A stretch of DNA of 64,000 bases from positions 874 through 64,873 of the forward strand of contig JAWOJB010000063.1 of NCBI GenBank assembly GCA_046484325.1, written 5' to 3'. Made by a program: the position numbers and the translations under genes. The notes beneath the pieces are model-generated. The model searched no databases and had not been told where the DNA came from. It was given only the letters and a program-made list of their open reading frames with translations. Of the stretch, positions 23,355-50,882 are shown piece by piece (position 1 is the stretch's first letter; each line of letters begins with the position of its first letter). The DNA comes from Acidimicrobiia bacterium (GTDB lineage: Bacteria > Actinomycetota > Acidimicrobiia > Spongiisociales > ZC4RG35).

Positions 23355-26300
23355 GTGCGCATCCACGTGCTCGGGCCCGTCACGGCGACGGAGGGCGACC
23401 TGACCGTCGACCTCGGCGGGAGACGGCAGCGCACGGTGCTGGCGGTGCTCGCCGCCCACGCCGGCCGCCCGGTCTCGACCGAGCGCCTCGCCGACGAACT
23501 GTGGGGCGACTCGGCGCCCGTCTCTGCCGCCAACACCACGCAGTCCTACGTGTCGCGCCTCCGCGCCCTGTTGGGCGAGGGGAGCATCGACTCAACCAGG
23601 GCCGGGTACGTACTCCGGCTCCCGGACATCGACGCCCGCGAGTTCGAGCAGCTGGTCCACCGGACCGAGCCCGCGGCCCGCGCCGAGAGCCTGCGCCATG
23701 CACTGGACCTGTGGACCGGAACCCCGTTCGAGGACGTCGACGATGCCCCGAGCATTCAGGCGGAGCGGGTCCGTCTCGAGGAGCTGCGGATGACTGCCCT
23801 CGAGCGCTGGGCCGACGTCGAACTGGAGGTCGGGCACGCCGACGAGGTGGTCCGCTCGCTCGAGGCCGAGGTGGACCGGCATCCCTTCCGCGAGGGTCTG
23901 TGGCTGAGGCTGATCTCGGCGCTGGCCGCCGCCGGCAGACGGGCCGATGCCCTCGATGCCCACCGGCGGGTGCGGACCGCCCTCGCCACCGAGCTTGGCA
24001 TCGAGCCGTCGCGCCAGCTCCAGGAGCTCGAGGAGCGGGTGTTGAACGGCGACCTGCCGGGGCCGGCTCCGGTGCCCGCTCCCGCGCCAGCCGGCCCACG
24101 GTTCCGACGGCCGCTTCCGGCCCCGCTGACCAGCTTCGTGGGACGTCGAGGCGAACTCGATGAGCTCGTGACCGCGGTCGGTCAGAGCCGGCTCGTGACC
24201 CTCACCGGAGTGGGCGGTTCCGGGAAGACCCGGCTCGCACTCGAAGCCACCCGCCGGTTGGCCGAGCACTTCGAAGACGGGGTGGCGTGGATCGAGCTGG
24301 AGGATGTCTCCGATCCGGAACTGGTGGCGGATGCCGTCGCCGCCGAACTGGGTCTGGACGCGCCGCCCGACCAGGTCGCCTCGATGAGCCGGCCCCCCCT
24401 CCTCGCTGCACCCACGCTCACCCGGCTCGAGACGGCACTCTCCGATAGGCACGCCTTGCTCGTGCTGGACACCTGTGACCATCTGGTCGAACCCGTCGCC
24501 CGGATGTTCGAGCCTCTGCTCAACTCCTGTCCGGGCCTGTGGGTTCTGGCCACCAGTCGCGAGCCGCTCGGCCTGATGGGAGAGGTGGTATGGGAGGTGC
24601 CGACACTCGGCACCTCCGCCGCAGACGCGGGCCACGGCGATGCCGTCCGGTTGTTCGGAGAGAGGGCTCGGGCCGTGCGCCCGGACTTTCGGATCGACCC
24701 CTCCAACGAGCCGGTGGTTGCCGAAATCTGTCGGAGGCTCGAGGGGATGCCTCTGGCGATCGAGCTGGCCGCCGCCCGGTTGCGGGTGTTCGACCTCGAC
24801 GAGATCGCAGCCAGATTGGACGATCGGCTCGGGTTCCTCGCCGGCAGCCGCAGCGCCCGACGCCGCCAGGAGAGCCTCCGCGCCACTCTCGACTGGAGCC
24901 ACGCTCTCCTGTCCGAGCCCGAACGACTGCTCTTCGGGAGGCTTTCGGTGTTCAGAGGATTCGACCTCGAAGCAGCCGAGCAGGCGGCGTCCGCCGACCC
25001 CTTGTCGCCCGCGGTGATCGCCGGCCTGCTCGGCTCACTCGTGGAGAAGTCGATGGTCGTCGCCGAGCCCACCGCCGAAGGTCGCCGGTTCCGCATGCTG
25101 GACACGATGCGCGAGTACGGCGAGGCGAGCGCCGATCGTGCCGAGATCGACCGGACGAGGGTCGCCCACCTCGACTACATGACGAGGCTGGCCGAGCGGC
25201 TCGCACGAGAGCTGGTCGGGCCCGGACAGGTCTCGGCGAGCCGCCGCCTGGACGCCGAGCAGGGCAACGTGCGTGCCGCCCTCGAGTGGGCCGTCGCACA
25301 GGGTCAAGTCGAACCTGGGCTCAGGCTCGCCGTGGCCATGGTCGAGTATTGGTCGGTTCGCGGCCGTGTCGGCGAAGCCAACGAGTGGCTCTCACGCCTG
25401 CTCGCCCTGCGACGCAGCGAAGCCTCGGCACTCCTCGCCAGCGCACTCTCCTTCGCGGCCAACTTCGCCGGCCAGGCCGAGGAACGGACGCAGGCGGAGC
25501 AGTATCTGACCGAGGCGCTCGCCATGGCCCGGACGCTCGGAGATGGGCGTGCCCTCGCGTTGGCCCTGTTCGCCGAAGGCTCGCACCGACATCGCAACCG
25601 GTACGGCCTCGATGTGGACGGCAGCGGCCCTCTGCTCGAGCAGGCTTTCGATCTCTTCCGAGAACTCGGAGACACCCTCGGGGAGGCCGACTGCCTGCTC
25701 GAGCTGGCCTGGCTCGGCTGGTGGGGCGAGGCCTTCGCCGAGGCCGCCGAGCTGGCCCGGGGGGCCCGGGCTCTGTACACGCAGGTCGGCCACATCGCCG
25801 GCATGGGCTGGTCGCTTCAGGCCGAGGGCCAGGCCGCATCCCAGCTCGGCGACATGGCCCGGGCCGGGAGCCTCTTCGCACAGGCGCTGGAGATCTCCGA
25901 ACGGCTCGGGGCACGCCCGATGGGTGCGTGGGCATCGTTCCACCTGGGGGAGGCGGTCGCCGCCCAGGGACGGCCCGTCGAGGCCGTCGACCGGTTCTCC
26001 GTCGCAGTCGCTCTGTTCGAGGAGGTGAACAACCGGTGGGGGGCGATGGTCGCCCACGGAACGTGGGGCACGGTCGCCCGACGAACTGGTGACCTCGCCA
26101 CGGCAGTCCGTGAGTATGGAACCTGTCTTCGACAGGCCACGTCGATCGACGCCGGCGGTTCGATGGTGTGGATGGTCGAGTCGATCGCCGGCCTCGCCTC
26201 GCAGCTCGGGGCCTTCGAGCCGGCTGCCCGGCTGGTGGCTGCCGCCGACCAGCGTCGGGTCGAGCGGTCGATGGCACGTCCCGTGTGGGACGACGAGTGG

Positions 26301-26435
26301 TACGAACAGGATCACGCCCGACTCAGGGAAGGGCTCGGGGCGCAGCGCCTCGACGAGCTGATGGAGCAGGGCCGCTCGCTCTCCTGGGACGACGCCATCG
26401 CCCTGGCATTCGAGCTGTGCGATGCACACCGCTGA
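23355..26435 (+). CDS. SARP/AfsR-family regulator: OmpR-type wHTH + BTAD + NB-ARC-like NTPase + TPR
   Basis: 1026 aa with a GTG start. The N-terminus MRIHVLGPV..RRQRTVLAVLA..LADELWGD is SARP-like. P-loop GVGGSGKT, Walker B LLVLDTCDHL, PLAIELAAARL, and a helical-repeat C-terminal half. Confidence 0.9.
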   Translation: MRIHVLGPVTATEGDLTVDLGGRRQRTVLAVLAAHAGRPVSTERLADELWGDSAPVSAANTTQSYVSRLRALLGEGSIDSTRAGYVLRLPDIDAREFEQLVHRTEPAARAESLRHALDLWTGTPFEDVDDAPSIQAERVRLEELRMTALERWADVELEVGHADEVVRSLEAEVDRHPFREGLWLRLISALAAAGRRADALDAHRRVRTALATELGIEPSRQLQELEERVLNGDLPGPAPVPAPAPAGPRFRRPLPAPLTSFVGRRGELDELVTAVGQSRLVTLTGVGGSGKTRLALEATRRLAEHFEDGVAWIELEDVSDPELVADAVAAELGLDAPPDQVASMSRPPLLAAPTLTRLETALSDRHALLVLDTCDHLVEPVARMFEPLLNSCPGLWVLATSREPLGLMGEVVWEVPTLGTSAADAGHGDAVRLFGERARAVRPDFRIDPSNEPVVAEICRRLEGMPLAIELAAARLRVFDLDEIAARLDDRLGFLAGSRSARRRQESLRATLDWSHALLSEPERLLFGRLSVFRGFDLEAAEQAASADPLSPAVIAGLLGSLVEKSMVVAEPTAEGRRFRMLDTMREYGEASADRAEIDRTRVAHLDYMTRLAERLARELVGPGQVSASRRLDAEQGNVRAALEWAVAQGQVEPGLRLAVAMVEYWSVRGRVGEANEWLSRLLALRRSEASALLASALSFAANFAGQAEERTQAEQYLTEALAMARTLGDGRALALALFAEGSHRHRNRYGLDVDGSGPLLEQAFDLFRELGDTLGEADCLLELAWLGWWGEAFAEAAELARGARALYTQVGHIAGMGWSLQAEGQAASQLGDMARAGSLFAQALEISERLGARPMGAWASFHLGEAVAAQGRPVEAVDRFSVAVALFEEVNNRWGAMVAHGTWGTVARRTGDLATAVREYGTCLRQATSIDAGGSMVWMVESIAGLASQLGAFEPAARLVAAADQRRVERSMARPVWDDEWYEQDHARLREGLGAQRLDELMEQGRSLSWDDAIALAFELCDAHR

Positions 26436-44697: not shown

Positions 44698-45267
44698 ATG
44701 GCGAATCTGTCAGAGCGGTACGACATGATCGAACATATGTTCGATCATGTACCCGCGGTCCGTAACCGCAGCGACCCCTGGGAGGCGGAGTGGGAGGTCG
44801 GTTGGGAGCTCCTGCACGGCTGCCCACCCCCGGTGGAAGGCCACGTGATCCCTCCCGGCCTCGACATGTGGGAACCGGGGCCGGTGCTGGCGGCGATCCT
44901 CTCGTCGATCGAGGTCGATGCGCTGACGGGTCACGATCGCGTGGTGGTCCTGCGGGCCCACCAGCGGCTCGCCTCACACCACCAGGCCGAGTGCCTGCAG
45001 GCCAGGTCGGCGATCACCGACGCCTACCGGGACGAACTCGCCATCGCCGAGGAGGAGTTCGCGTGGGAGGTGGCCGAGGCGGAGGTTCGGGCTGCCCTTC
45101 GTCTCACCCGGCGGGCGGCGTCAAGCGACATGACCCTTGCCCACCATCTCCACCATCGGCTTCCAGAGGTGGCCAGGGCCCTGACCGATGGCGACGGGCT
45201 AGATGCCCGCCGGGGTGGGGATGCTCCCGGAGGAGTTCACCCCGGACAACGGTCGCAGGAAGCGTAA
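44698..45267 (+). pseudogene. truncated DUF222 (13E12-type) gene lacking the HNH nuclease part
   Basis: Contains PPGLDMWEPGPVLAAILSSI, VVVLRAHQRLASHHQAE, EVRAALRLTRRAA and LPEVARALTDG. Homology stops where the DUF222 core would continue, and no HNH motif follows in any frame. Confidence 0.65.
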
Positions 45268-45312: not shown

Positions 45313-45750
45313 ATGAAGAACGTATGGAAGGGAATGACGGTCGGAGCGTTCGCCGGCGCCCTCGTAGGAGTGATCATGGACGTGGTAGAGGGTACCGGAC
45401 GCCGTGCGGCCGAGGTCTCGGCACGAGCAGCGACCGGCGTGTCCACCCGCGCCCGGTCCGGGGCGACACACCTCGCCGAGTTCGTCGAGGAGAAGATCGA
45501 CGAATGGGACGTGAAGGACAAGGTCGACCAGGTGAAGGGCGGAGTCGAACATGGGCTCGAGCAGGCGAAGGACGTCTCTGCCCGAGCCGCCTCGGAAGCC
45601 TCGACGCGCGCCAAGTCCGGCGCCGCTCACATGGCCGACCTCGTCGAGGACAAGATCGACGAATGGGACGTGAAGGACAAGGTCGACCAAGTGAAGGGCG
45701 GAGTCGAAGATGCGGTCGACAAGGGCAAGGAGACCCTGAAGCGGAACTAG
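45313..45750 (+). CDS. small membrane-anchored protein with internal 53-aa tandem duplication
   Basis: ATG preceded by aagaaaggac. Gly-zipper helix GMTVGAFAGALVGVIMDVV. aa 35-80 and 88-132 are near-identical (VSARAA..KIDEWDVKDKVDQVKGGVE). Confidence 0.75.
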   Translation: MKNVWKGMTVGAFAGALVGVIMDVVEGTGRRAAEVSARAATGVSTRARSGATHLAEFVEEKIDEWDVKDKVDQVKGGVEHGLEQAKDVSARAASEASTRAKSGAAHMADLVEDKIDEWDVKDKVDQVKGGVEDAVDKGKETLKRN

Positions 45751-45900: not shown

Positions 45901-46141
45901 CTATGACGGATTGACGAGTGCGGTTGCCTCCTCGGCCGTCAGGCCCGATGTCCGGCGGACCGACCCGGTCATGTCGGCGAAGACCACCGTCACCAGCCGC
46001 TCCTCGCCCCGTCGGTCCGACATGACGCCGCGGCGCAGGTCGGCGGGAACCGCCTGGGTCGAGGAGGCGAGCAGGGCACCGGACTGCGAACAGAACCGCG
46101 CCTTCTGAAGGGCTCACCTGACCGCAGGCCTGACAATGCAT
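45901..46141 (-). pseudogene. decayed zinc-ribbon + class III nucleotide cyclase N-terminal fragment
   Basis: MHCQACGQVSPSE in one frame, then after a 1-nt shift ARFCSQSGALL...ERLVTVVFADMTGSVRRTSGL, ending at TAG 45903-45901. Divergent from the intact cyclase-STAND gene. Confidence 0.6.
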
Positions 46142-46201
46142 CGGTGCCGAGGAAGCTACCGACGGCCTCTTCCGCACACCGGTCCCGGTAGCGTTTGCGC
46201 C

Positions 46202-48796
46202 ATGGCGACGGTCACCTTCCTCTTCAGCGATATCGAAGGGTCGACCCGTCTGTGGCAGGCGCACACGCAGGCGATGCCCGCCGCCCTCGCCCGGCACGAC
46301 GAGATCGTGTTCGACGCTGTGACTGCCGCTGGGGGAACCGTCTTCAAGCACACCGGAGACGGGGTGGCCGCCGTATTCGAGTCGGCTCCTGCCGCGCTGA
46401 CCGCAGCCACCGACATACACCGGCGGTTGGCTCCCGAAACCAACCCGGACGTCGGGCCGATCCGGGTGCGGATCGGAGTCCACACCGGCGAAGCCGAGTC
46501 ACGCAGGGACGACTGGTTCGGGCTGACCGTGAACCGGACCGCTCGCATCATGGCCGCCGGCCACGGTGGACAGACCCTTCTCAGCCGGGCCACGGCCGAG
46601 TTGGTCGCCGACCGCCGTCTCGAACTGCGCGACCTCGGCGAGCACCGTCTGTCCGGCCTGGACCGATCCGAACGGATCTACCAACTATGCGCGCCGGGGT
46701 TGTCGGCCGAGTTTCCGGCCCTCACCACCGAGGTTGCCGTCGTTCACCTGCCCCACTCCCTCACCGAACTCATCGGCCGTGACCCGCTGATCGCGCACGT
46801 CCGCAGCAGGCTCGGCGCTGGTCCGGTGGTCACGCTCACCGGGGTGGGAGGGGTCGGCAAGACCACCCTCGCTCTCGCCGTCGCCTCCGAGCCTCCGGAG
46901 GGGATCGAAGGGGTGTGGTTCTGCGACCTGGTCCCCGTCACCGAAGCCGAGCGGGTGGCAGCGACCGTGGCTGCCGCCGTCGGGCTTCCCGCAGACGACG
47001 CTACGCAAGCCGCCGATCGGGTCGCCCAATGGATCGGCGACCGGTCGGTCCTCCTCGTCGTCGACAACTGCGAACATGTCCTCGACGGGGCGGCTCGACT
47101 CGTAGAAAAATTCACCGTTGCCTGTCCAGGCCTCACGGTCCTCGCCACCAGCCGGGCGCCGCTCGGAGTCACCGCCGAACAAGTGATTCCCGTCAGTCCC
47201 CTCGAATCCGACGCCGCCGTCGAACTGCTCCGCCGTCGAGCCGAGGCGGCCGGCGCAGGGAGGATCGATGATCGGCGGGTCGCCGAACTGTGCTCTCGGC
47301 TCGATCGTCTGCCGCTCGCCATCGAACTGGCCGCCGCCCGCCTCCCCCACCTTTCCGTCGACGACATCCTCACCCGTCTCGACGAACGGTTCCGCCTGCT
47401 GTCGGCCCGGCGGGGTGACCCGCGCCACGCCACACTGCTCGCCACCATCGACTGGAGCTACCAACTGCTCGAACCCGACGAGCAGGCGATGTTGAGGACG
47501 GCCGGCGTCTTCACGTCCCGCTTCGACCTGGCGGCGGCGGCCGCCGTCTGGGGCGGTGACGAGTACGACGCCATCGATCTCGTTGGTTCGCTCGTCTCCA
47601 AGTCGCTGCTCATCGCCGAGGTCGACGGCGCCGGGACCACCGGGTATCGGCTGCTGGAGACGGTGCGGGCGTTCGCCCACGAACGCGCCGCCGAACTGGG
47701 CGAGTCCGAGGCCCTCGCCCAAGAGCACGCCGAGCACTACCTCCGCCAGTCGCTCGCCCAACCACCCGTGACCGGCGACCGACAACCGTGGACGTACGTG
47801 CTCGAACAGGATCCGGGCAGGGGATTCCAGGATCCGAACCGTCCGCAGGCGGTGGGTTGGCTCGTCGCGCACGACCGGCTGGTCGACGCCGCACGGTTCG
47901 CCTCGCGGCTGCTGCTCGTCAAGTGGTACCGGCCGGATTCTGTCGAAGGCATCCTCCGCCGCCCGGAGGTGGCGGACATGCTCGACGACGCAGACGAGCG
48001 TGCGCTGTACCTGGCTGCCTCGGCGCTGCAGGCGAACATGGTCGGACGGTGGGACGAGATCCGGGACTTCGCCGAAGCCGCTCTGGCGCTCGAACCCCAT
48101 CCCCACACTGCCGCCATCGCCGCCGGGCTCGCCGCCCAGATGGCCGCCATCCGTGGCGACGACCGGGTGGAGGAGTTCGTGAGCCTGGGATTGGAGCGGC
48201 TGCCGGCCGAAGCGGTCGAACTGCGGCAGTTCCTACGAGAACGGCGCTGTGACGACATCATCCGCCGCAGGCTCGACGACGGGATTCGGCTGCTCGACGA
48301 ACTCCACGCGGAAGGGAGCGTTTGGGCGACGTTCGAGCTGCTGATGTGCTGTGTGCTGACCGGACGTGACCCCGAACCGCTGATCGCCGGCATGACAAAA
48401 CAGCAGCTCGACTCCCAGTTCGGATACCGGGCATCCCTCGCCCGCGCATTCGTGGCCGCGGCAGCAGCCGACGCCGATGAGGCGATCCCGCTGTTGACCA
48501 GAGCGGGAGCCACAGCGCTCCGATTCAGGGGCTCGCTCTTCGAACACGACGTGCTGGTCGGCTGCGCCATACTCGCCGAGGCCCAGGGCCGGTACGAGGA
48601 GGCATCCCGGATGCTGGCGGCGGTGGGCGGAAGCACCCGCACCCCGGCAAGCTTCCTTGTCTACCGCTGGTGCCGTGACCGGGTCCGGGAACGGCTGCCG
48701 CGGGAGCGGGTCGGCGGCCTCCGAGCCGAGATGTCCGGCAGGGACGCGGCGTCGGTGCTGTCCGAGGAACTGGCGCGACTGGGGCGTGAGAGATAG
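46202..48796 (+). CDS. class III adenylate/guanylate cyclase domain + NB-ARC-like STAND NTPase + TPR/helical repeats
   Basis: ATG 46202. VTFLFSDIEGSTRLW..KHTGDGVAAVF..GVHTGEA..NRTARIM is the cyclase domain. P-loop GVGGVGKT, LLVVDNCEHV, PLAIELAAARL. The C-terminal ~400 aa are helical. Confidence 0.88.
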   Translation: MATVTFLFSDIEGSTRLWQAHTQAMPAALARHDEIVFDAVTAAGGTVFKHTGDGVAAVFESAPAALTAATDIHRRLAPETNPDVGPIRVRIGVHTGEAESRRDDWFGLTVNRTARIMAAGHGGQTLLSRATAELVADRRLELRDLGEHRLSGLDRSERIYQLCAPGLSAEFPALTTEVAVVHLPHSLTELIGRDPLIAHVRSRLGAGPVVTLTGVGGVGKTTLALAVASEPPEGIEGVWFCDLVPVTEAERVAATVAAAVGLPADDATQAADRVAQWIGDRSVLLVVDNCEHVLDGAARLVEKFTVACPGLTVLATSRAPLGVTAEQVIPVSPLESDAAVELLRRRAEAAGAGRIDDRRVAELCSRLDRLPLAIELAAARLPHLSVDDILTRLDERFRLLSARRGDPRHATLLATIDWSYQLLEPDEQAMLRTAGVFTSRFDLAAAAAVWGGDEYDAIDLVGSLVSKSLLIAEVDGAGTTGYRLLETVRAFAHERAAELGESEALAQEHAEHYLRQSLAQPPVTGDRQPWTYVLEQDPGRGFQDPNRPQAVGWLVAHDRLVDAARFASRLLLVKWYRPDSVEGILRRPEVADMLDDADERALYLAASALQANMVGRWDEIRDFAEAALALEPHPHTAAIAAGLAAQMAAIRGDDRVEEFVSLGLERLPAEAVELRQFLRERRCDDIIRRRLDDGIRLLDELHAEGSVWATFELLMCCVLTGRDPEPLIAGMTKQQLDSQFGYRASLARAFVAAAAADADEAIPLLTRAGATALRFRGSLFEHDVLVGCAILAEAQGRYEEASRMLAAVGGSTRTPASFLVYRWCRDRVRERLPRERVGGLRAEMSGRDAASVLSEELARLGRER

Positions 48797-48915: not shown

Positions 48916-49343
48916 CTCTCGACGTGGGTGGTCCGGTCGAAGAAATCCTTCACACGCTCGCGGATCGCTTCGATGCTGTTCCCATCCTCGTCCCCGGCTC
49001 TTGGCGATGAGGATGTGGGCGTCAGGTGCAGCCCCGTCGTCGACGAGGTCGGCAAGAACCAGCTGTCCATGCTCGCCTGGCAGACCAACCGCAACGCCCA
49101 AACCGAAGCCGTCTTCGCACCCAAGCGCGTCGACAACGCCGACCCCGGGCCGCCGCTCCAACACACCGGCTAGATCGATCCCCCAAAACCCCGACCGGAC
49201 ATCAAGACGTAGAGACGCGCCCTCGATGCGTCTCCGGGCAGACCCGCCAGCCTGACACCACCGAGAACCACCCGCACCCCACCTATCCTGACCCATGAGA
49301 CTGGAACCGCGCCTGGTTTCCAACCGCGTTTCCAACCCATCCC

Positions 49344-49416
49344 GCCCACGTAGCTCAGGGGATAGAGCAACTGCCTCCTAAGCAGTAGGTCACAGGTTCG
49401 AATCCTGTCGTGGGCG
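49344..49416 (+). tRNA. tRNA-Arg (anticodon CCT)
   Basis: Cloverleaf read by hand. Acceptor GCCCACG/CGTGGGC, D arm GCTC-AGGGGATA-GAGC, anticodon stem ACTGC/GCAGT with loop CTCCTAA, T arm ACAGG-TTCGAAT-CCTGT. CCA is not encoded. Confidence 0.9.
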
Positions 49417-49457
49417 CCCGAGGTGCACCCCGCCCCCGACCGCAATACGCTGCAGAC

Positions 49458-50882
49458 GTGACCGTCCCCTTCTACGAGCCGCTGTCGTATCTCGACGCGT
49501 CGTTCCTCGCCCTCGAGACACGGACGACTCACATGCACGTGGCGGCCGTCGCCATCTTCGACGCCCGGGCGCTGCAACTCGAGGGAGGCGGCATCGACAT
49601 CGATCGGATCCGCGCCCATATCGAGGCGAAGCTCCAGTACATCCCCCGGTACCGGCAGCGGCTCGGGTACGTCCCGTACAACCGGTCGCCGGTGTGGGTG
49701 GACGACGATCACTTCAACTTCGACTACCACGTCCGTCACACGAGTCTGCCGCGGCCCGGCTCCGACGCCCAGCTCAAGCGGCTCACCGGCCGGATCCTCT
49801 CGAACCAACTCGATCGGGACAAGCCGCTCTGGGAGCTCTGGGTGGTGGAAGGCCTCGAGGGAGACCGCTTCGCCCTCATCGCCAAGCTTCATCACTGCAT
49901 GATCGACGGGATCGCCGGAGTCGATCTCACCACGATCCTCCTCAACGTCGTCCCCGACGGGACGATCGAGCAGGCCCCGCACTGGCGGCCGCGCCCGGCA
50001 CCGACCGGGACCCAGCTGGCGGTGGCCGAGATCGCCAAGGCCACGCGGCGGACGATCGATCTCATCGCCGACGCCGGGGGCATCGTGAAACGATCGAGCT
50101 CGGCGCTGTCGACCGCCGGCCACCGGATGTCGGCGGCCAAGGAGTCGCTCTCCTCGGGCTGGCTCACCCCGGCCAGCCGGACGCCGCTCAACCCCGAGAT
50201 CGGCCCCAACCGGCGGTTCGACTGGACCGAGATGGGCCTCGACGAGATCAAGGCGGTCAAGAACGCCCTCGGGGGGACCGTGAACGACGTCGTGCTCGCG
50301 ATCGCCACCGGGGCAGTCCGCCACTTCCTCCAGGTCCACCGCAACTACCCAGTGGATGGCCTCGAGTTCCGGGCGATGGCCCCGGTGAGCGTGCGGATGG
50401 AGCACCAGCGCGGACGGCTCGGGAACCAGGTGGCGATGTGGCTCGTCGAGCTCCCGGTGGGATCCGCCGACCCGGCCGGGTGGGTGCACCAGATCGCCGG
50501 CGAGACCCGCCATCTCAAGGAGACCGATCAGGCACTCGGAGCGGCCACCATCGTCGAGCTCTCGAGCGGCACCCCGGTGCCGCTCCTGTCCCTCGCCTCC
50601 CGACTCGCGAGCAACGTCCTTCGGCCGTTCAACCTCACGATCACCAACGTGCCCGGCCCTCAGTTCCCCATGTACCTGCTCGAGGCCCGGATGGTCGCCA
50701 ACTACCCGATCGTCCCGCTCTGGGCTCAACACGGGGTGGGCCTGGCCCTCTTCAGCTACGACGGGCGCCTGCAGTGGGGTATCCACGCCGACTACGACGC
50801 CCTCCCCGACACCGGGGCGTTCGTCGAGTCGCTTCACCACGCGTTCAGGCAACTCCAGAACGCGGCCACGACAGCCGGCTGA
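49458..50882 (+). CDS. wax ester synthase/diacylglycerol acyltransferase (WS/DGAT)
   Basis: HHCMIDGIAG active-site motif and NLTITNVPGP. GTG 49458 is the first start clear of the tRNA. Confidence 0.88.
   Translation: MTVPFYEPLSYLDASFLALETRTTHMHVAAVAIFDARALQLEGGGIDIDRIRAHIEAKLQYIPRYRQRLGYVPYNRSPVWVDDDHFNFDYHVRHTSLPRPGSDAQLKRLTGRILSNQLDRDKPLWELWVVEGLEGDRFALIAKLHHCMIDGIAGVDLTTILLNVVPDGTIEQAPHWRPRPAPTGTQLAVAEIAKATRRTIDLIADAGGIVKRSSSALSTAGHRMSAAKESLSSGWLTPASRTPLNPEIGPNRRFDWTEMGLDEIKAVKNALGGTVNDVVLAIATGAVRHFLQVHRNYPVDGLEFRAMAPVSVRMEHQRGRLGNQVAMWLVELPVGSADPAGWVHQIAGETRHLKETDQALGAATIVELSSGTPVPLLSLASRLASNVLRPFNLTITNVPGPQFPMYLLEARMVANYPIVPLWAQHGVGLALFSYDGRLQWGIHADYDALPDTGAFVESLHHAFRQLQNAATTAG

What the first reader, a model, noticed from the sequence alone, without database searches (positions are those of the whole stretch)
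46202..48796. Nucleotide cyclase fused to a STAND NTPase and TPR sensor: candidate signal-activated second-messenger generator
The N-terminal ~190 aa carry class III cyclase motifs (FSDIEGST, KHTGDG, GVHTGEA, NRTARIM). They are followed by an NB-ARC-like P-loop NTPase and about 400 aa of helical repeats, with no C-terminal DNA-binding domain. Effector-NTPase-repeat sensor is the logic of STAND switches, including antiviral Avs-type proteins. Cyclase-ATPase fusions are known in mycobacteria, usually with a LuxR HTH that is absent here. Its location in a decaying accessory patch, next to a dead paralogue, would fit a fast-evolving sensor. I see no gene with a cyclic-nucleotide-binding domain nearby, so any downstream effector is unknown.
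Basis: partly seen in the sequence, partly recalled or inferred. Interest (0 to 1): 0.6.

Follow-up and report, generated by a model that had tools for sequence, protein, structure and literature searches.

The report
STAND-controlled adenylyl cyclase, ordinary family member
This is an intact gene for a cAMP-making enzyme fused to an NLR-like ATP switch and a helical-repeat sensor; it is one of at least eight such genes in this uncultured Acidimicrobiia genome, belongs to a very large, already named but biochemically little-studied family, and shows no sign of being an antiviral system.

Summary
Window 46202-48796 (+) encodes an intact 864-aa protein with three parts: a class III cyclase (res 1-170), a STAND NTPase with helical and winged-helix domains (189-518), and an all-alpha repeat sensor (519-864). 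There is no C-terminal HTH.

All six canonical cyclase residues are present, and the Lys/Asp pair predicts cAMP. The AF2 model (pLDDT 87.6) matches the Ma1120 cyclase, a TPR-STAND protein and Apaf-1.

The architecture is common. More than 7,900 database homologues exist, many named "predicted ATPase/class 3 adenylate cyclase". The genome itself has at least 8 such paralogues, and relatives have up to 23 matches each.

The defence reading is not supported. There are no Avs hits and only a weak partial PycC hit. The neighbours are not defence genes, and no effector gene is linked. Every domain is under purifying selection (dN/dS 0.09-0.24), and the sensor evolves no faster than the cyclase.

The C-terminal sensor type is rare (42 cluster representatives in 1.84 billion). 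On the same NTPase-sensor chassis, cyclase and SARP DNA-binding heads have been exchanged at least four times. The "dead paralogue" is a ~240-nt stump of a different subfamily (zinc-ribbon cyclase).

Verdict: a new member of a known kind.

The parts
46202..48796 (+). Intact gene, 864 aa: class III adenylyl cyclase - STAND NTPase - alpha-repeat sensor
   Evidence: ORF and translation. An identical protein is called on a metagenome contig. Pfam, NCBIfam and PDB matches. AF2 model with pLDDT 87.6.
46202..46711 (+). Cyclase homology domain (res 1-170). Metal-binding D10 and D53; substrate-specifying K49 and D104; transition-state N111 and R115.
   Evidence: Guanylate_cyc E 5.5e-12. Ma1120 (4wp9) E 2e-16, with alignment shown. 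Residue census in orthologues. Foldseek against Ma1120: TM 0.90-0.94, rmsd 1.2-2.3 A.
46712..46765 (+). Poorly conserved linker (res 171-188). This is the junction at which cyclase and SARP heads are exchanged in relatives.
   Evidence: Amino-acid identity is 44-72% and dN/dS reaches 1.2 here, against 0.09-0.24 elsewhere (only 18 codons). Similarity to SARP-headed relatives begins at about res 183. pLDDT dips to 67-71.
46766..47206 (+). P-loop NTPase domain (res 189-335). Walker A is GVGGVGKT (214-221), Walker B is LLVVDN (284-289), sensor-1 is TSR (316-318).
   Evidence: AAA_22, NB-ARC and nSTAND hits. FxSxx_TPR NTPase part E 3.7e-20. Invariant columns G214-T221, D288-E291 and T316-R318.
47207..47755 (+). 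Helical (ARC-like, 'RLPLAIELAAAR') and winged-helix domains (res 336-518). The motif YRLLETVR stands where NLRs and AfsR have (M/F/Y)HD.
   Evidence: Precomputed PF25872 HTH_77. Invariant L485, E486 and R489. LLET or MLET found in 57 of 121 homologues by regex. AfsR F/Y-HD motif from bioRxiv 10.64898/2026.09.02.748808.
47756..48793 (+). C-terminal all-alpha repeat (TPR-like) sensor domain (res 519-864). It is a rare type, not shared with the genome's own paralogues.
   Evidence: AF2 shows paired helices over 546-863 with pLDDT mostly above 85. Only 42 cluster representatives out of 1.84 billion match at E<=1e-3. No own-genome paralogue aligns beyond about res 586 by tblastn (up to about 666 by HMMER).
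45901..46141 (-). Frameshifted stump of a zinc-ribbon-cyclase paralogue, head-to-head with the live gene. It must contain or overlap the live gene's promoter region.
   Evidence: Translation reads MHCQACGQVSPSE, then a frameshift, then ARFCSQSGALL...ERLVTVVFADMTGS. tblastn against the own genome hits the N-termini of the DZR-cyclase-AAA_16 genes at C101:31826-32005 (E 2.8e-5), C27:29065 and C89:19257, whose architecture is shown.

Best explanation
The gene encodes a cytoplasmic, ligand-gated adenylyl cyclase built as a STAND (NLR-like) switch.

Proposed mechanism, all inferred:
1. In the resting state the NTPase-helical-winged-helix module holds ADP. It and the C-terminal alpha-repeat sensor keep the protein monomeric and closed.
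2. A still unknown intracellular ligand binds the repeat sensor. This allows exchange of ADP for ATP and then oligomerisation.
3. Oligomerisation brings the N-terminal cyclase domains together. A class III cyclase forms its active sites only across a dimer interface, so proximity is the on-switch.
4. ATP is converted to cAMP.
5. cAMP is read by the genome's unlinked cNMP-binding proteins.

The gene is one member of a paralogous array of such sensors in this Acidimicrobiia genome, presumably each with its own ligand.

What is shown: domain composition, intact catalytic and NTPase motifs, fold, purifying selection, family size, and exchange of output heads with SARP.

What is inferred: the activation order, cAMP as product, the ligand, and the downstream receivers.
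For: Cyclase domain:
- It matches Pfam Guanylate_cyc and the solved ATP-bound adenylyl cyclase Ma1120.
- It keeps D10/D53, K49/D104 and N111/R115. By established class III rules, a Lys/Asp pair specifies ATP.

NTPase module:
- Walker A, Walker B, sensor-1 and the LPLA-type motif are invariant across 28 homologues.
- The model superposes on a TPR-STAND protein (6mfv), Apaf-1 and NRC3.

Selection: all domains are under purifying selection, dN/dS 0.09-0.24 against three orthologues.

Signalling context:
- The own genome has 19 cyclase-domain matches, at least 8 with this cyclase + NTPase layout.
- It has 11 cNMP_binding matches.
- Most related genomes carry matches, up to 23 each; 5 of 40 have none.

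Output exchange:
- The same NTPase + sensor chassis carries a SARP DNA-binding head in close relatives. A tree of the chassis interleaves cyclase and SARP heads, with at least 4-5 changes forced by well-supported branches. The target clade is (P0008 cyc,(P0011 SARP,(P0006,target))) at 100/98 support.
- SARP also acts as a side-by-side dimer. In AfsR it is inhibited by the NOD and TPR domains, and ATP binding relieves this (PMC10936776). This fits two proximity-activated outputs on one switch.
Against: No biochemical evidence exists for this protein or any close relative.

The histidine of the NLR/AfsR (M/F/Y)HD latch, which contacts ADP, is replaced here by leucine (LLE). Nucleotide-state control may therefore differ from the textbook STAND cycle.

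NB-ARC scores just below Pfam's cut-off.

Inter-domain geometry is uncertain (pTM 0.56), so the model shows no autoinhibitory contact.

The ligand is unknown. Neither gene context nor promoter gives a clue.

The gene lies in a rearranged patch with gene stumps.
Confidence: 0.7

Rival explanations
1. It is an antiviral STAND (Avs-like) or dispersed Pycsar-like sensor. The repeat domain recognises a phage protein, and the cyclase emits a cNMP alarm that activates a toxic cNMP-binding effector encoded elsewhere.
For: - It has the effector-NTPase-sensor layout.
- There is a weak PycC hit (PDLC00734, E 3.6e-7, res 4-99).
- It belongs to a multi-copy, variable paralogue repertoire.
- It sits in a rearranged patch with an HNH/DUF222 stump.
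- No orthologue is found in 40 related species.
Against: - No Avs, bNACHT or other STAND defence model is hit.
- The PycC hit is partial and is what any class III cyclase would give.
- There is no adjacent effector and no defence neighbourhood.
- Orthologues have no conserved partner gene.
- The sensor is not diversifying (dN/dS 0.14-0.20).
- The nearest relatives of the chassis carry a transcription-activator head, which is a regulatory output, not a suicide output.
- The Lys/Asp pair predicts cAMP, a housekeeping messenger here, given about 19 cyclase-domain matches in this genome.
Confidence: 0.07
2. The cyclase domain is catalytically silent. It serves only as a dimerisation or nucleotide-binding adaptor, and the protein acts as a scaffold or regulator through protein-protein contacts.
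For: Inactive cyclase domains are reported in other multi-domain NTPase systems (PMC7159879). Some homologues in the alignment have lost the Lys (A, F or S at column 49).
Against: This protein and all of its orthologues keep all six catalytic residues. The domain is under purifying selection, dN/dS 0.15-0.21.
Confidence: 0.08
3. The enzyme makes a nucleotide other than cAMP (cGMP or a pyrimidine cNMP), so it feeds a separate signalling channel.
For: Substrate choice in class III cyclases is not always predicted by the canonical pair. Rv0386 uses a non-canonical mode (cited in PMC3466318). There is also the weak PycC similarity.
Against: K49 and D104 form the canonical adenine-selecting pair. 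The best structural and sequence match is the ATP-using Ma1120.
Confidence: 0.08
4. It is a decaying or non-functional gene in a degenerating accessory patch.
For: It is flanked by a DUF222 stump and a cyclase stump, and the upstream flank differs from that of a near-identical contig. GC3 is 0.82, slightly lower than the neighbours at 0.87-0.92.
Against: The frame is full-length and open, with the same length as its orthologues at 856-865 aa. All motifs are intact. dN/dS is 0.16-0.20 overall.
Confidence: 0.03

Closest known systems
Mycobacterium tuberculosis Rv0386 / Rv1358 / Rv2488c (CHD-AAA/NB-ARC-TPR-LuxR proteins)
   Same: They have an N-terminal class III cyclase followed by a STAND-type ATPase and TPR-like repeats. 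The cyclase domain of Rv0386 is an active adenylyl cyclase (Castro 2005 and Agarwal 2009, as cited in PMC3466318).
   Different: They end in a LuxR/GerE HTH, which is absent here. According to PMC3466318, that CHD+LuxR sub-family is restricted to Mycobacterium. Rv0386 uses a non-canonical substrate-selecting pair, whereas this protein has canonical Lys/Asp.
AfsR and other 'large SARPs' (SARP-NOD-TPR)
   Same: They share the NTPase - helical/WH - repeat-sensor chassis. The nearest non-orthologous relatives of this protein's chassis are SARP-headed (49-50% identity over 78% of the query). In AfsR the NOD and TPR domains inhibit the head and ATP binding relieves this (PMC10936776).
   Different: The output head here is a cyclase, not Trans_reg_C + BTAD. 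The F/Y-HD latch of AfsR (bioRxiv 10.64898/2026.09.02.748808) is LLE here. The window's own SARP-STAND gene at 23355-26435 also has MLD, not HD.
Ma1120 (M. avium) / Rv1900c class III adenylyl cyclase domains
   Same: They give the best sequence and fold matches for res 1-165 (E 2e-16; TM 0.90-0.94). The metal, substrate and transition-state residues are the same.
   Different: Ma1120 was solved as a stand-alone catalytic domain, and Rv1900c is fused to an alpha/beta-hydrolase. Neither has a STAND module.
Database family 'predicted ATPase / class 3 adenylate cyclase' (JGI naming), 'adenylate/guanylate cyclase domain-containing protein' (NCBI naming)
   Same: The cyclase + NTPase + HTH_77 (+ TPR) architecture is identical. 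More than 7,900 hits were found, at the candidate limit of the search. These proteins are multi-copy in Acidimicrobiia genomes.
   Different: Most members align with this protein only over res 1 to about 520. Its C-terminal sensor type is rare.
Pycsar (PycC cyclase + cNMP-activated effector) and Avs antiviral STANDs
   Same: Pycsar uses a class III-like cyclase that makes a cyclic mononucleotide. Avs has the effector-NTPase-sensor logic.
   Different: There is no linked effector, no Avs model hit and no defence neighbourhood, and the specificity residues are of the adenine type.

Membership tests
Class III nucleotidyl cyclase (Pfam PF00211) | Profile match above the curated cut-off, and the cyclase fold | tested here: met
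   46.1 bits against a cut-off of 21.9. Foldseek TM 0.90-0.94 to Ma1120 and Rv1900c.
Class III nucleotidyl cyclase (Pfam PF00211) | Two metal-binding aspartates | tested here: met
   D10 (FSDIEGST) and D53 (KHTGDG) align with the Ma1120 aspartates. They are conserved in all orthologues.
Class III nucleotidyl cyclase (Pfam PF00211) | Substrate-specifying pair (Lys/Asp for ATP) | tested here: met
   K49 and D104. Assigning them to adenine selection rests on established knowledge of class III cyclases.
Class III nucleotidyl cyclase (Pfam PF00211) | Transition-state Asn and Arg | tested here: met
   N111 and R115 in NRTAR.
Class III nucleotidyl cyclase (Pfam PF00211) | Dimer-dependent catalytic activity, with cAMP as product | not testable with these tools
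   This needs an enzyme assay.
STAND NTPase (NB-ARC / AfsR-like clade) | Walker A, Walker B and sensor-1 Arg | tested here: met
   GVGGVGKT at 214-221, LLVVDN at 284-289 and TSR at 316-318 are invariant in 28 homologues.
STAND NTPase (NB-ARC / AfsR-like clade) | Profile match to NB-ARC or STAND models | tested here: inconclusive
   NB-ARC scores 21.8 bits against a cut-off of 23.5. AAA_22 scores 27.6 against 27. nSTAND1 and nSTAND6 fall below their cut-offs. The FxSxx_TPR NTPase part scores E 3.7e-20. There are structural matches to 6mfv, Apaf-1 and NRC3.
STAND NTPase (NB-ARC / AfsR-like clade) | Helical (GLPLA-type) and winged-helix domains after the P-loop domain, then a repeat sensor | tested here: met
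   RLPLAIELAAAR motif, precomputed HTH_77, and AF2 secondary structure.
STAND NTPase (NB-ARC / AfsR-like clade) | (M/F/Y)HD latch histidine in the winged helix | tested here: not met
   The position reads YRLLETVR, with L485 and E486 invariant. The AfsR motif is described.
Mycobacterial CHD-ATPase-TPR-LuxR cyclases (Rv0386 type) | C-terminal LuxR/GerE HTH | tested here: not met
   No GerE hit. The model is an alpha-solenoid to the last residue.
Mycobacterial CHD-ATPase-TPR-LuxR cyclases (Rv0386 type) | N-terminal cyclase + ATPase + TPR | tested here: met
Large SARP (AfsR type) | N-terminal Trans_reg_C + BTAD DNA-binding head | tested here: not met
   There is no such hit in the target. The head is present in chassis relatives P0009-P0014 and in 8 of 28 proteins that carry this sensor type.
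Avs / antiviral STAND | Match to defence STAND models, a defence-type effector, and a defence-island context | tested here: not met
   PADLOC gives no Avs or bNACHT hit. The neighbours give no credible defence hits. Neighbour Pfam content is metabolic or transport.
Pycsar | PycC-type cyclase with an adjacent cNMP-binding effector gene | tested here: not met
   The PycC match is weak and partial, 27.6 bits over res 4-99. There is no cNMP_binding domain on the contig, and neighbours vary among orthologues.

The most novel reading that the evidence does not exclude
The cyclase-STAND paralogue array of these Acidimicrobiia is an innate-immune-like receptor repertoire. Each repeat sensor recognises a foreign (for example phage) or danger-associated molecule, and the cyclase head emits a cNMP alarm. 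That alarm is read by unlinked cNMP-binding effectors, making a dispersed, non-operonic relative of Pycsar. The repeated cyclase/SARP head swaps on one sensor chassis would then be alternative immune outputs.
Probability: 0.06. Interest if true: 0.8.

Novelty: new member of a known kind. Interest (0 to 1): 0.3.

Why it matters
By itself the gene adds one more member to a very large family of actinobacterial cyclase-STAND proteins. That family is named in databases but has hardly been studied biochemically.

Its use is as a clean, compact (864 aa), soluble-looking test case. It could show whether NLR-type oligomerisation switches on a dimer-dependent cyclase.

The side observation is more useful. 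The same rare sensor domain is found behind either a cyclase or a SARP DNA-binding head, with at least four exchanges and some double-headed proteins. This gives natural chimeras. They could be used to test whether cAMP synthesis and direct transcription activation are interchangeable outputs of one ligand sensor, and to search for that ligand.

Tried and rejected
- **Paralogue next door.** tblastn of the target against the window, even at E<=10, found none beside the gene. The stump emerged only from a note of another first-stage reader, followed by a search with its own peptide. It belongs to the zinc-ribbon subfamily, so it is not a copy of the live gene.
- **Defence.** PADLOC on the protein and on nine neighbours was negative, apart from generic PycC, NYN and a spurious HEase hit.
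- **Island inserted at a tRNA.** tRNA-Arg(CCT) lies at 49343-49419, but the patch is on its 5' side. No flanking direct repeat was found. The upstream gltS-like gene has no counterpart in 25 relatives, all of different genera, so no empty-site comparison was possible.
- **Regulatory RNA, promoter or terminator around the gene.** Nothing was found except the tRNA. The sigma-70 consensus scan is of little value in a genome of 70% GC.
- **Fast-evolving sensor.** Rejected by per-domain dN/dS.
- **Literature.** The full text of the 2004 survey of actinobacterial cyclases (PMC2447327) is not held, so I could not quote it. The search index shows that it mentions NB-ARC 14 times and BTAD twice. I found no paper that describes the cyclase/SARP head exchange. 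The library is incomplete, so this is not proof of absence.
Full report
**What is there**

The window has about 70% GC. It is contig C71 of a 2.45-Mb, 104-contig, 87%-complete genome. Close orthologues come from MAGs titled Acidimicrobiia / uncultured Acidimicrobiaceae.

An ORF runs from 46136 to 48796 on the + strand. The ATG at 46202 gives an 864-aa product. That product is identical to a gene called on a JGI metagenome contig, and it begins like its orthologues. Codon-position GC (0.76/0.50/0.82) fits a coding frame. Its GC3 is slightly below that of the neighbours, which are at 0.87-0.92.

**Domains**

Pfam places Guanylate_cyc on res 3-161 (E 5.5e-12, above its cut-off). A set of P-loop/STAND models (AAA_22, NB-ARC, nSTAND1/6, AAA_16) falls on res 189-382. 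No DNA-binding domain is found at the C-terminus. The NTPase part of NCBIfam FxSxx_TPR matches res 186-429 at E 3.7e-20. Precomputed annotation adds PF25872 HTH_77, the winged helix of this NTPase type.

An AF2 model built on 28 homologues has mean pLDDT 87.6 and pTM 0.56. It shows:
- an alpha/beta cyclase fold at res 1-165;
- a P-loop domain;
- a helical plus winged-helix part up to about res 518;
- helix pairs from 546 to 863.

Foldseek matches the N-terminus to the Ma1120 and Rv1900c adenylyl cyclases (TM 0.90-0.94, rmsd 1.2-2.3 A). It matches the rest to a TPR-containing STAND protein (6mfv), Apaf-1 and the tomato NRC3 resistosome.

**Catalytic competence**

In the HMMER alignment to Ma1120 and in the family alignment, the protein has all six canonical class III residues:
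- the two metal aspartates, D10 and D53;
- the substrate-selecting pair, K49 and D104;
- the transition-state pair, N111 and R115.

All are kept in the five orthologues at 82-88% identity. By the established rules for class III cyclases, a Lys/Asp pair selects ATP, so cAMP is the expected product. This is an inference, not a measurement.

The NTPase has Walker A (GVGGVGKT), Walker B (LLVVDN), sensor-1 (TSR) and an LPLA-type motif, all invariant.

One departure stands out. Plant NLRs and AfsR carry the (M/F/Y)HD latch, whose histidine contacts ADP (bioRxiv 10.64898/2026.09.02.748808). This family instead has an invariant LLE (YRLLETVR). The window's own SARP-STAND gene (23355-26435) has MLD at that position.

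**How common it is**

The word-indexed search hit its ceiling: 7,985 of 8,000 scored candidates had E<=0.001. Nearly all of the best 120 combine PF00211 with PF25872. JGI names them 'predicted ATPase/class 3 adenylate cyclase'.

The own genome has 19 cyclase-domain matches. Seven other genes share cyclase + NTPase with the target at 36-43% identity. Pfam confirms a cyclase-NTPase-TPR layout for six of them; the seventh (C51) fell below the cyclase threshold in that scan. A second subfamily, zinc-ribbon-cyclase-AAA_16-TPR, is also confirmed.

Among 40 species representatives of the same family or order, 35 have matches, up to 23 per genome. Most of those matches start at res 2-5, so they include the cyclase. 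None is an orthologue: the best is 48% identical, over res 2-522 only.

The genome also has 11 cNMP_binding matches, none on this contig. A dense cAMP network is therefore plausible.

**Context**

The neighbours are:
- Upstream: NYN-LOTUS, a Glt_symporter-like gene, a DUF222 N-terminal stump (about 45043-45195), and a small repeat protein.
- Downstream: an 81-aa ORF, tRNA-Arg(CCT) at 49343-49419, WS/DGAT, a Na/Ca exchanger, EamA, and a hydrolase.

A metagenome contig carrying the identical protein is collinear with the window from about 45195 rightwards. To the left it carries the HNH-proximal part of a DUF222 gene instead.

Three orthologues at 83-87% identity lie among entirely different genes. 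There is thus no conserved partner gene, and the gene looks like a self-contained module.

The 'dead paralogue' is a ~240-nt minus-strand stump at 45901-46141. It has a zinc-ribbon start, one frameshift and the first cyclase motif. Against the own genome it hits exactly the N-termini of the zinc-ribbon-cyclase genes, with a best E of 2.8e-5.

**Defence or signalling?**

The evidence favours ordinary signalling:
- PADLOC gives only a partial PycC match (27.6 bits, res 4-99) and no Avs or bNACHT model.
- Nine neighbours give nothing credible.
- Per-domain Nei-Gojobori estimates against three orthologues give dN/dS 0.15-0.21 for the cyclase, 0.21-0.24 for the NTPase, 0.09-0.13 for the helical/WH part and 0.14-0.20 for the sensor. 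Only the 18-residue linker is relaxed. The sensor is therefore not fast-evolving.

**A rarer feature**

The C-terminal domain (res 519-864) is not shared with the genome's own paralogues. In a filter-only HMMER scan of 1.84 billion cluster representatives it finds just 42 proteins at E<=1e-3. This was a single-sequence search, so distant repeat domains may have been missed.

Of 28 carriers scanned, 13 have a cyclase head and 8 a SARP (Trans_reg_C + BTAD) head. One, P0147, has SARP + cyclase + NTPase + sensor.

A maximum-likelihood tree of the NTPase + sensor part interleaves the two heads. Well-supported branches force at least 4-5 changes. The target's own clade is (P0008 cyclase,(P0011 SARP,(P0006,target))) with 100/98 support. 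The exchange junction coincides with the poorly conserved linker at res 171-188.

**Mechanism**

Class III cyclases need a dimer to form their active sites (established knowledge). SARP heads bind DNA as a side-by-side dimer. In AfsR the head is held off by the NOD and TPR domains until ATP binds (PMC10936776). Both are proximity-activated outputs.

This explains why they are interchangeable on one oligomerising switch. It also supports the following sequence: ligand binds the repeat sensor, nucleotide is exchanged, the protein oligomerises, the cyclase domains dimerise, and cAMP is made. None of these steps is shown for this protein.

**Comparison and verdict**

The closest described proteins are the mycobacterial Rv0386/Rv1358/Rv2488c cyclases, which add a LuxR HTH that is absent here (PMC3466318), and AfsR-type large SARPs, which share the chassis but have a different head. 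The protein fails the defining head or tail feature of both. It is fully a member of the class III cyclases and of the STAND NTPases, and of the database family 'ATPase/class 3 adenylate cyclase'.

It is a new member of a known kind and of modest interest. Its main value is as a tractable model, and for the natural cyclase/SARP chimeras around it.

Noticed in passing
P0147; also P0070 and P0072: These proteins carry both heads in one chain: SARP (Trans_reg_C + BTAD), then a class III cyclase, then the same NTPase and sensor. They look like dual-output versions of the switch.
   Followed up: partly
window 23355-26435 (+): A second STAND protein lies in the same window: SARP (Trans_reg_C + BTAD)-NB-ARC-TPR_12, 1026 aa. 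Its NTPase is 39% identical to the target's, and it has MLD instead of AfsR's HD latch.
   Followed up: partly
window 45313-45750 (+): This small 145-aa gene contains a 159-nt tandem duplication (45412-45570 and 45571-45729, 80% identity). A near-identical metagenome contig has one extra base upstream, near window 45295, and there the gene is called at 182 aa.
   Followed up: partly
window about 45043-45199: A DUF222 N-terminal stump ends at the point where the window and metagenome contig L001 stop being collinear. L001 carries the C-terminal, HNH-proximal part of a DUF222 gene instead. This is a structural variant within the population.
   Followed up: partly
window 49343-49419 (+): tRNA-Arg(CCT) overlaps the first codons of the longest WS/DGAT ORF (49410-50882). 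The true start of that gene is probably further downstream.
   Followed up: no
L019 = G000:C101:20002-23280: This paralogue has an extra N-terminal DUF4062 domain ahead of cyclase-NB-ARC-TPR, 1092 aa in all.
   Followed up: no
L002 4594-8067 (-): In one metagenome contig, the 87% orthologue lies tail-to-tail with an intact 1157-aa zinc-ribbon-cyclase-AAA_16 gene. That is the subfamily to which the stump beside the window's gene belongs.
   Followed up: partly
L011 531-1610 and L012 1327-2403: Both 83-84% orthologues have a Peptidase_S41 gene just upstream, but in opposite orientations relative to the cyclase gene.
   Followed up: no
window 46136-46141: The palindrome ATGCAT supplies the upstream in-frame ATG of the live gene's longest ORF. 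On the other strand it supplies the start codon of the zinc-ribbon stump.
   Followed up: no
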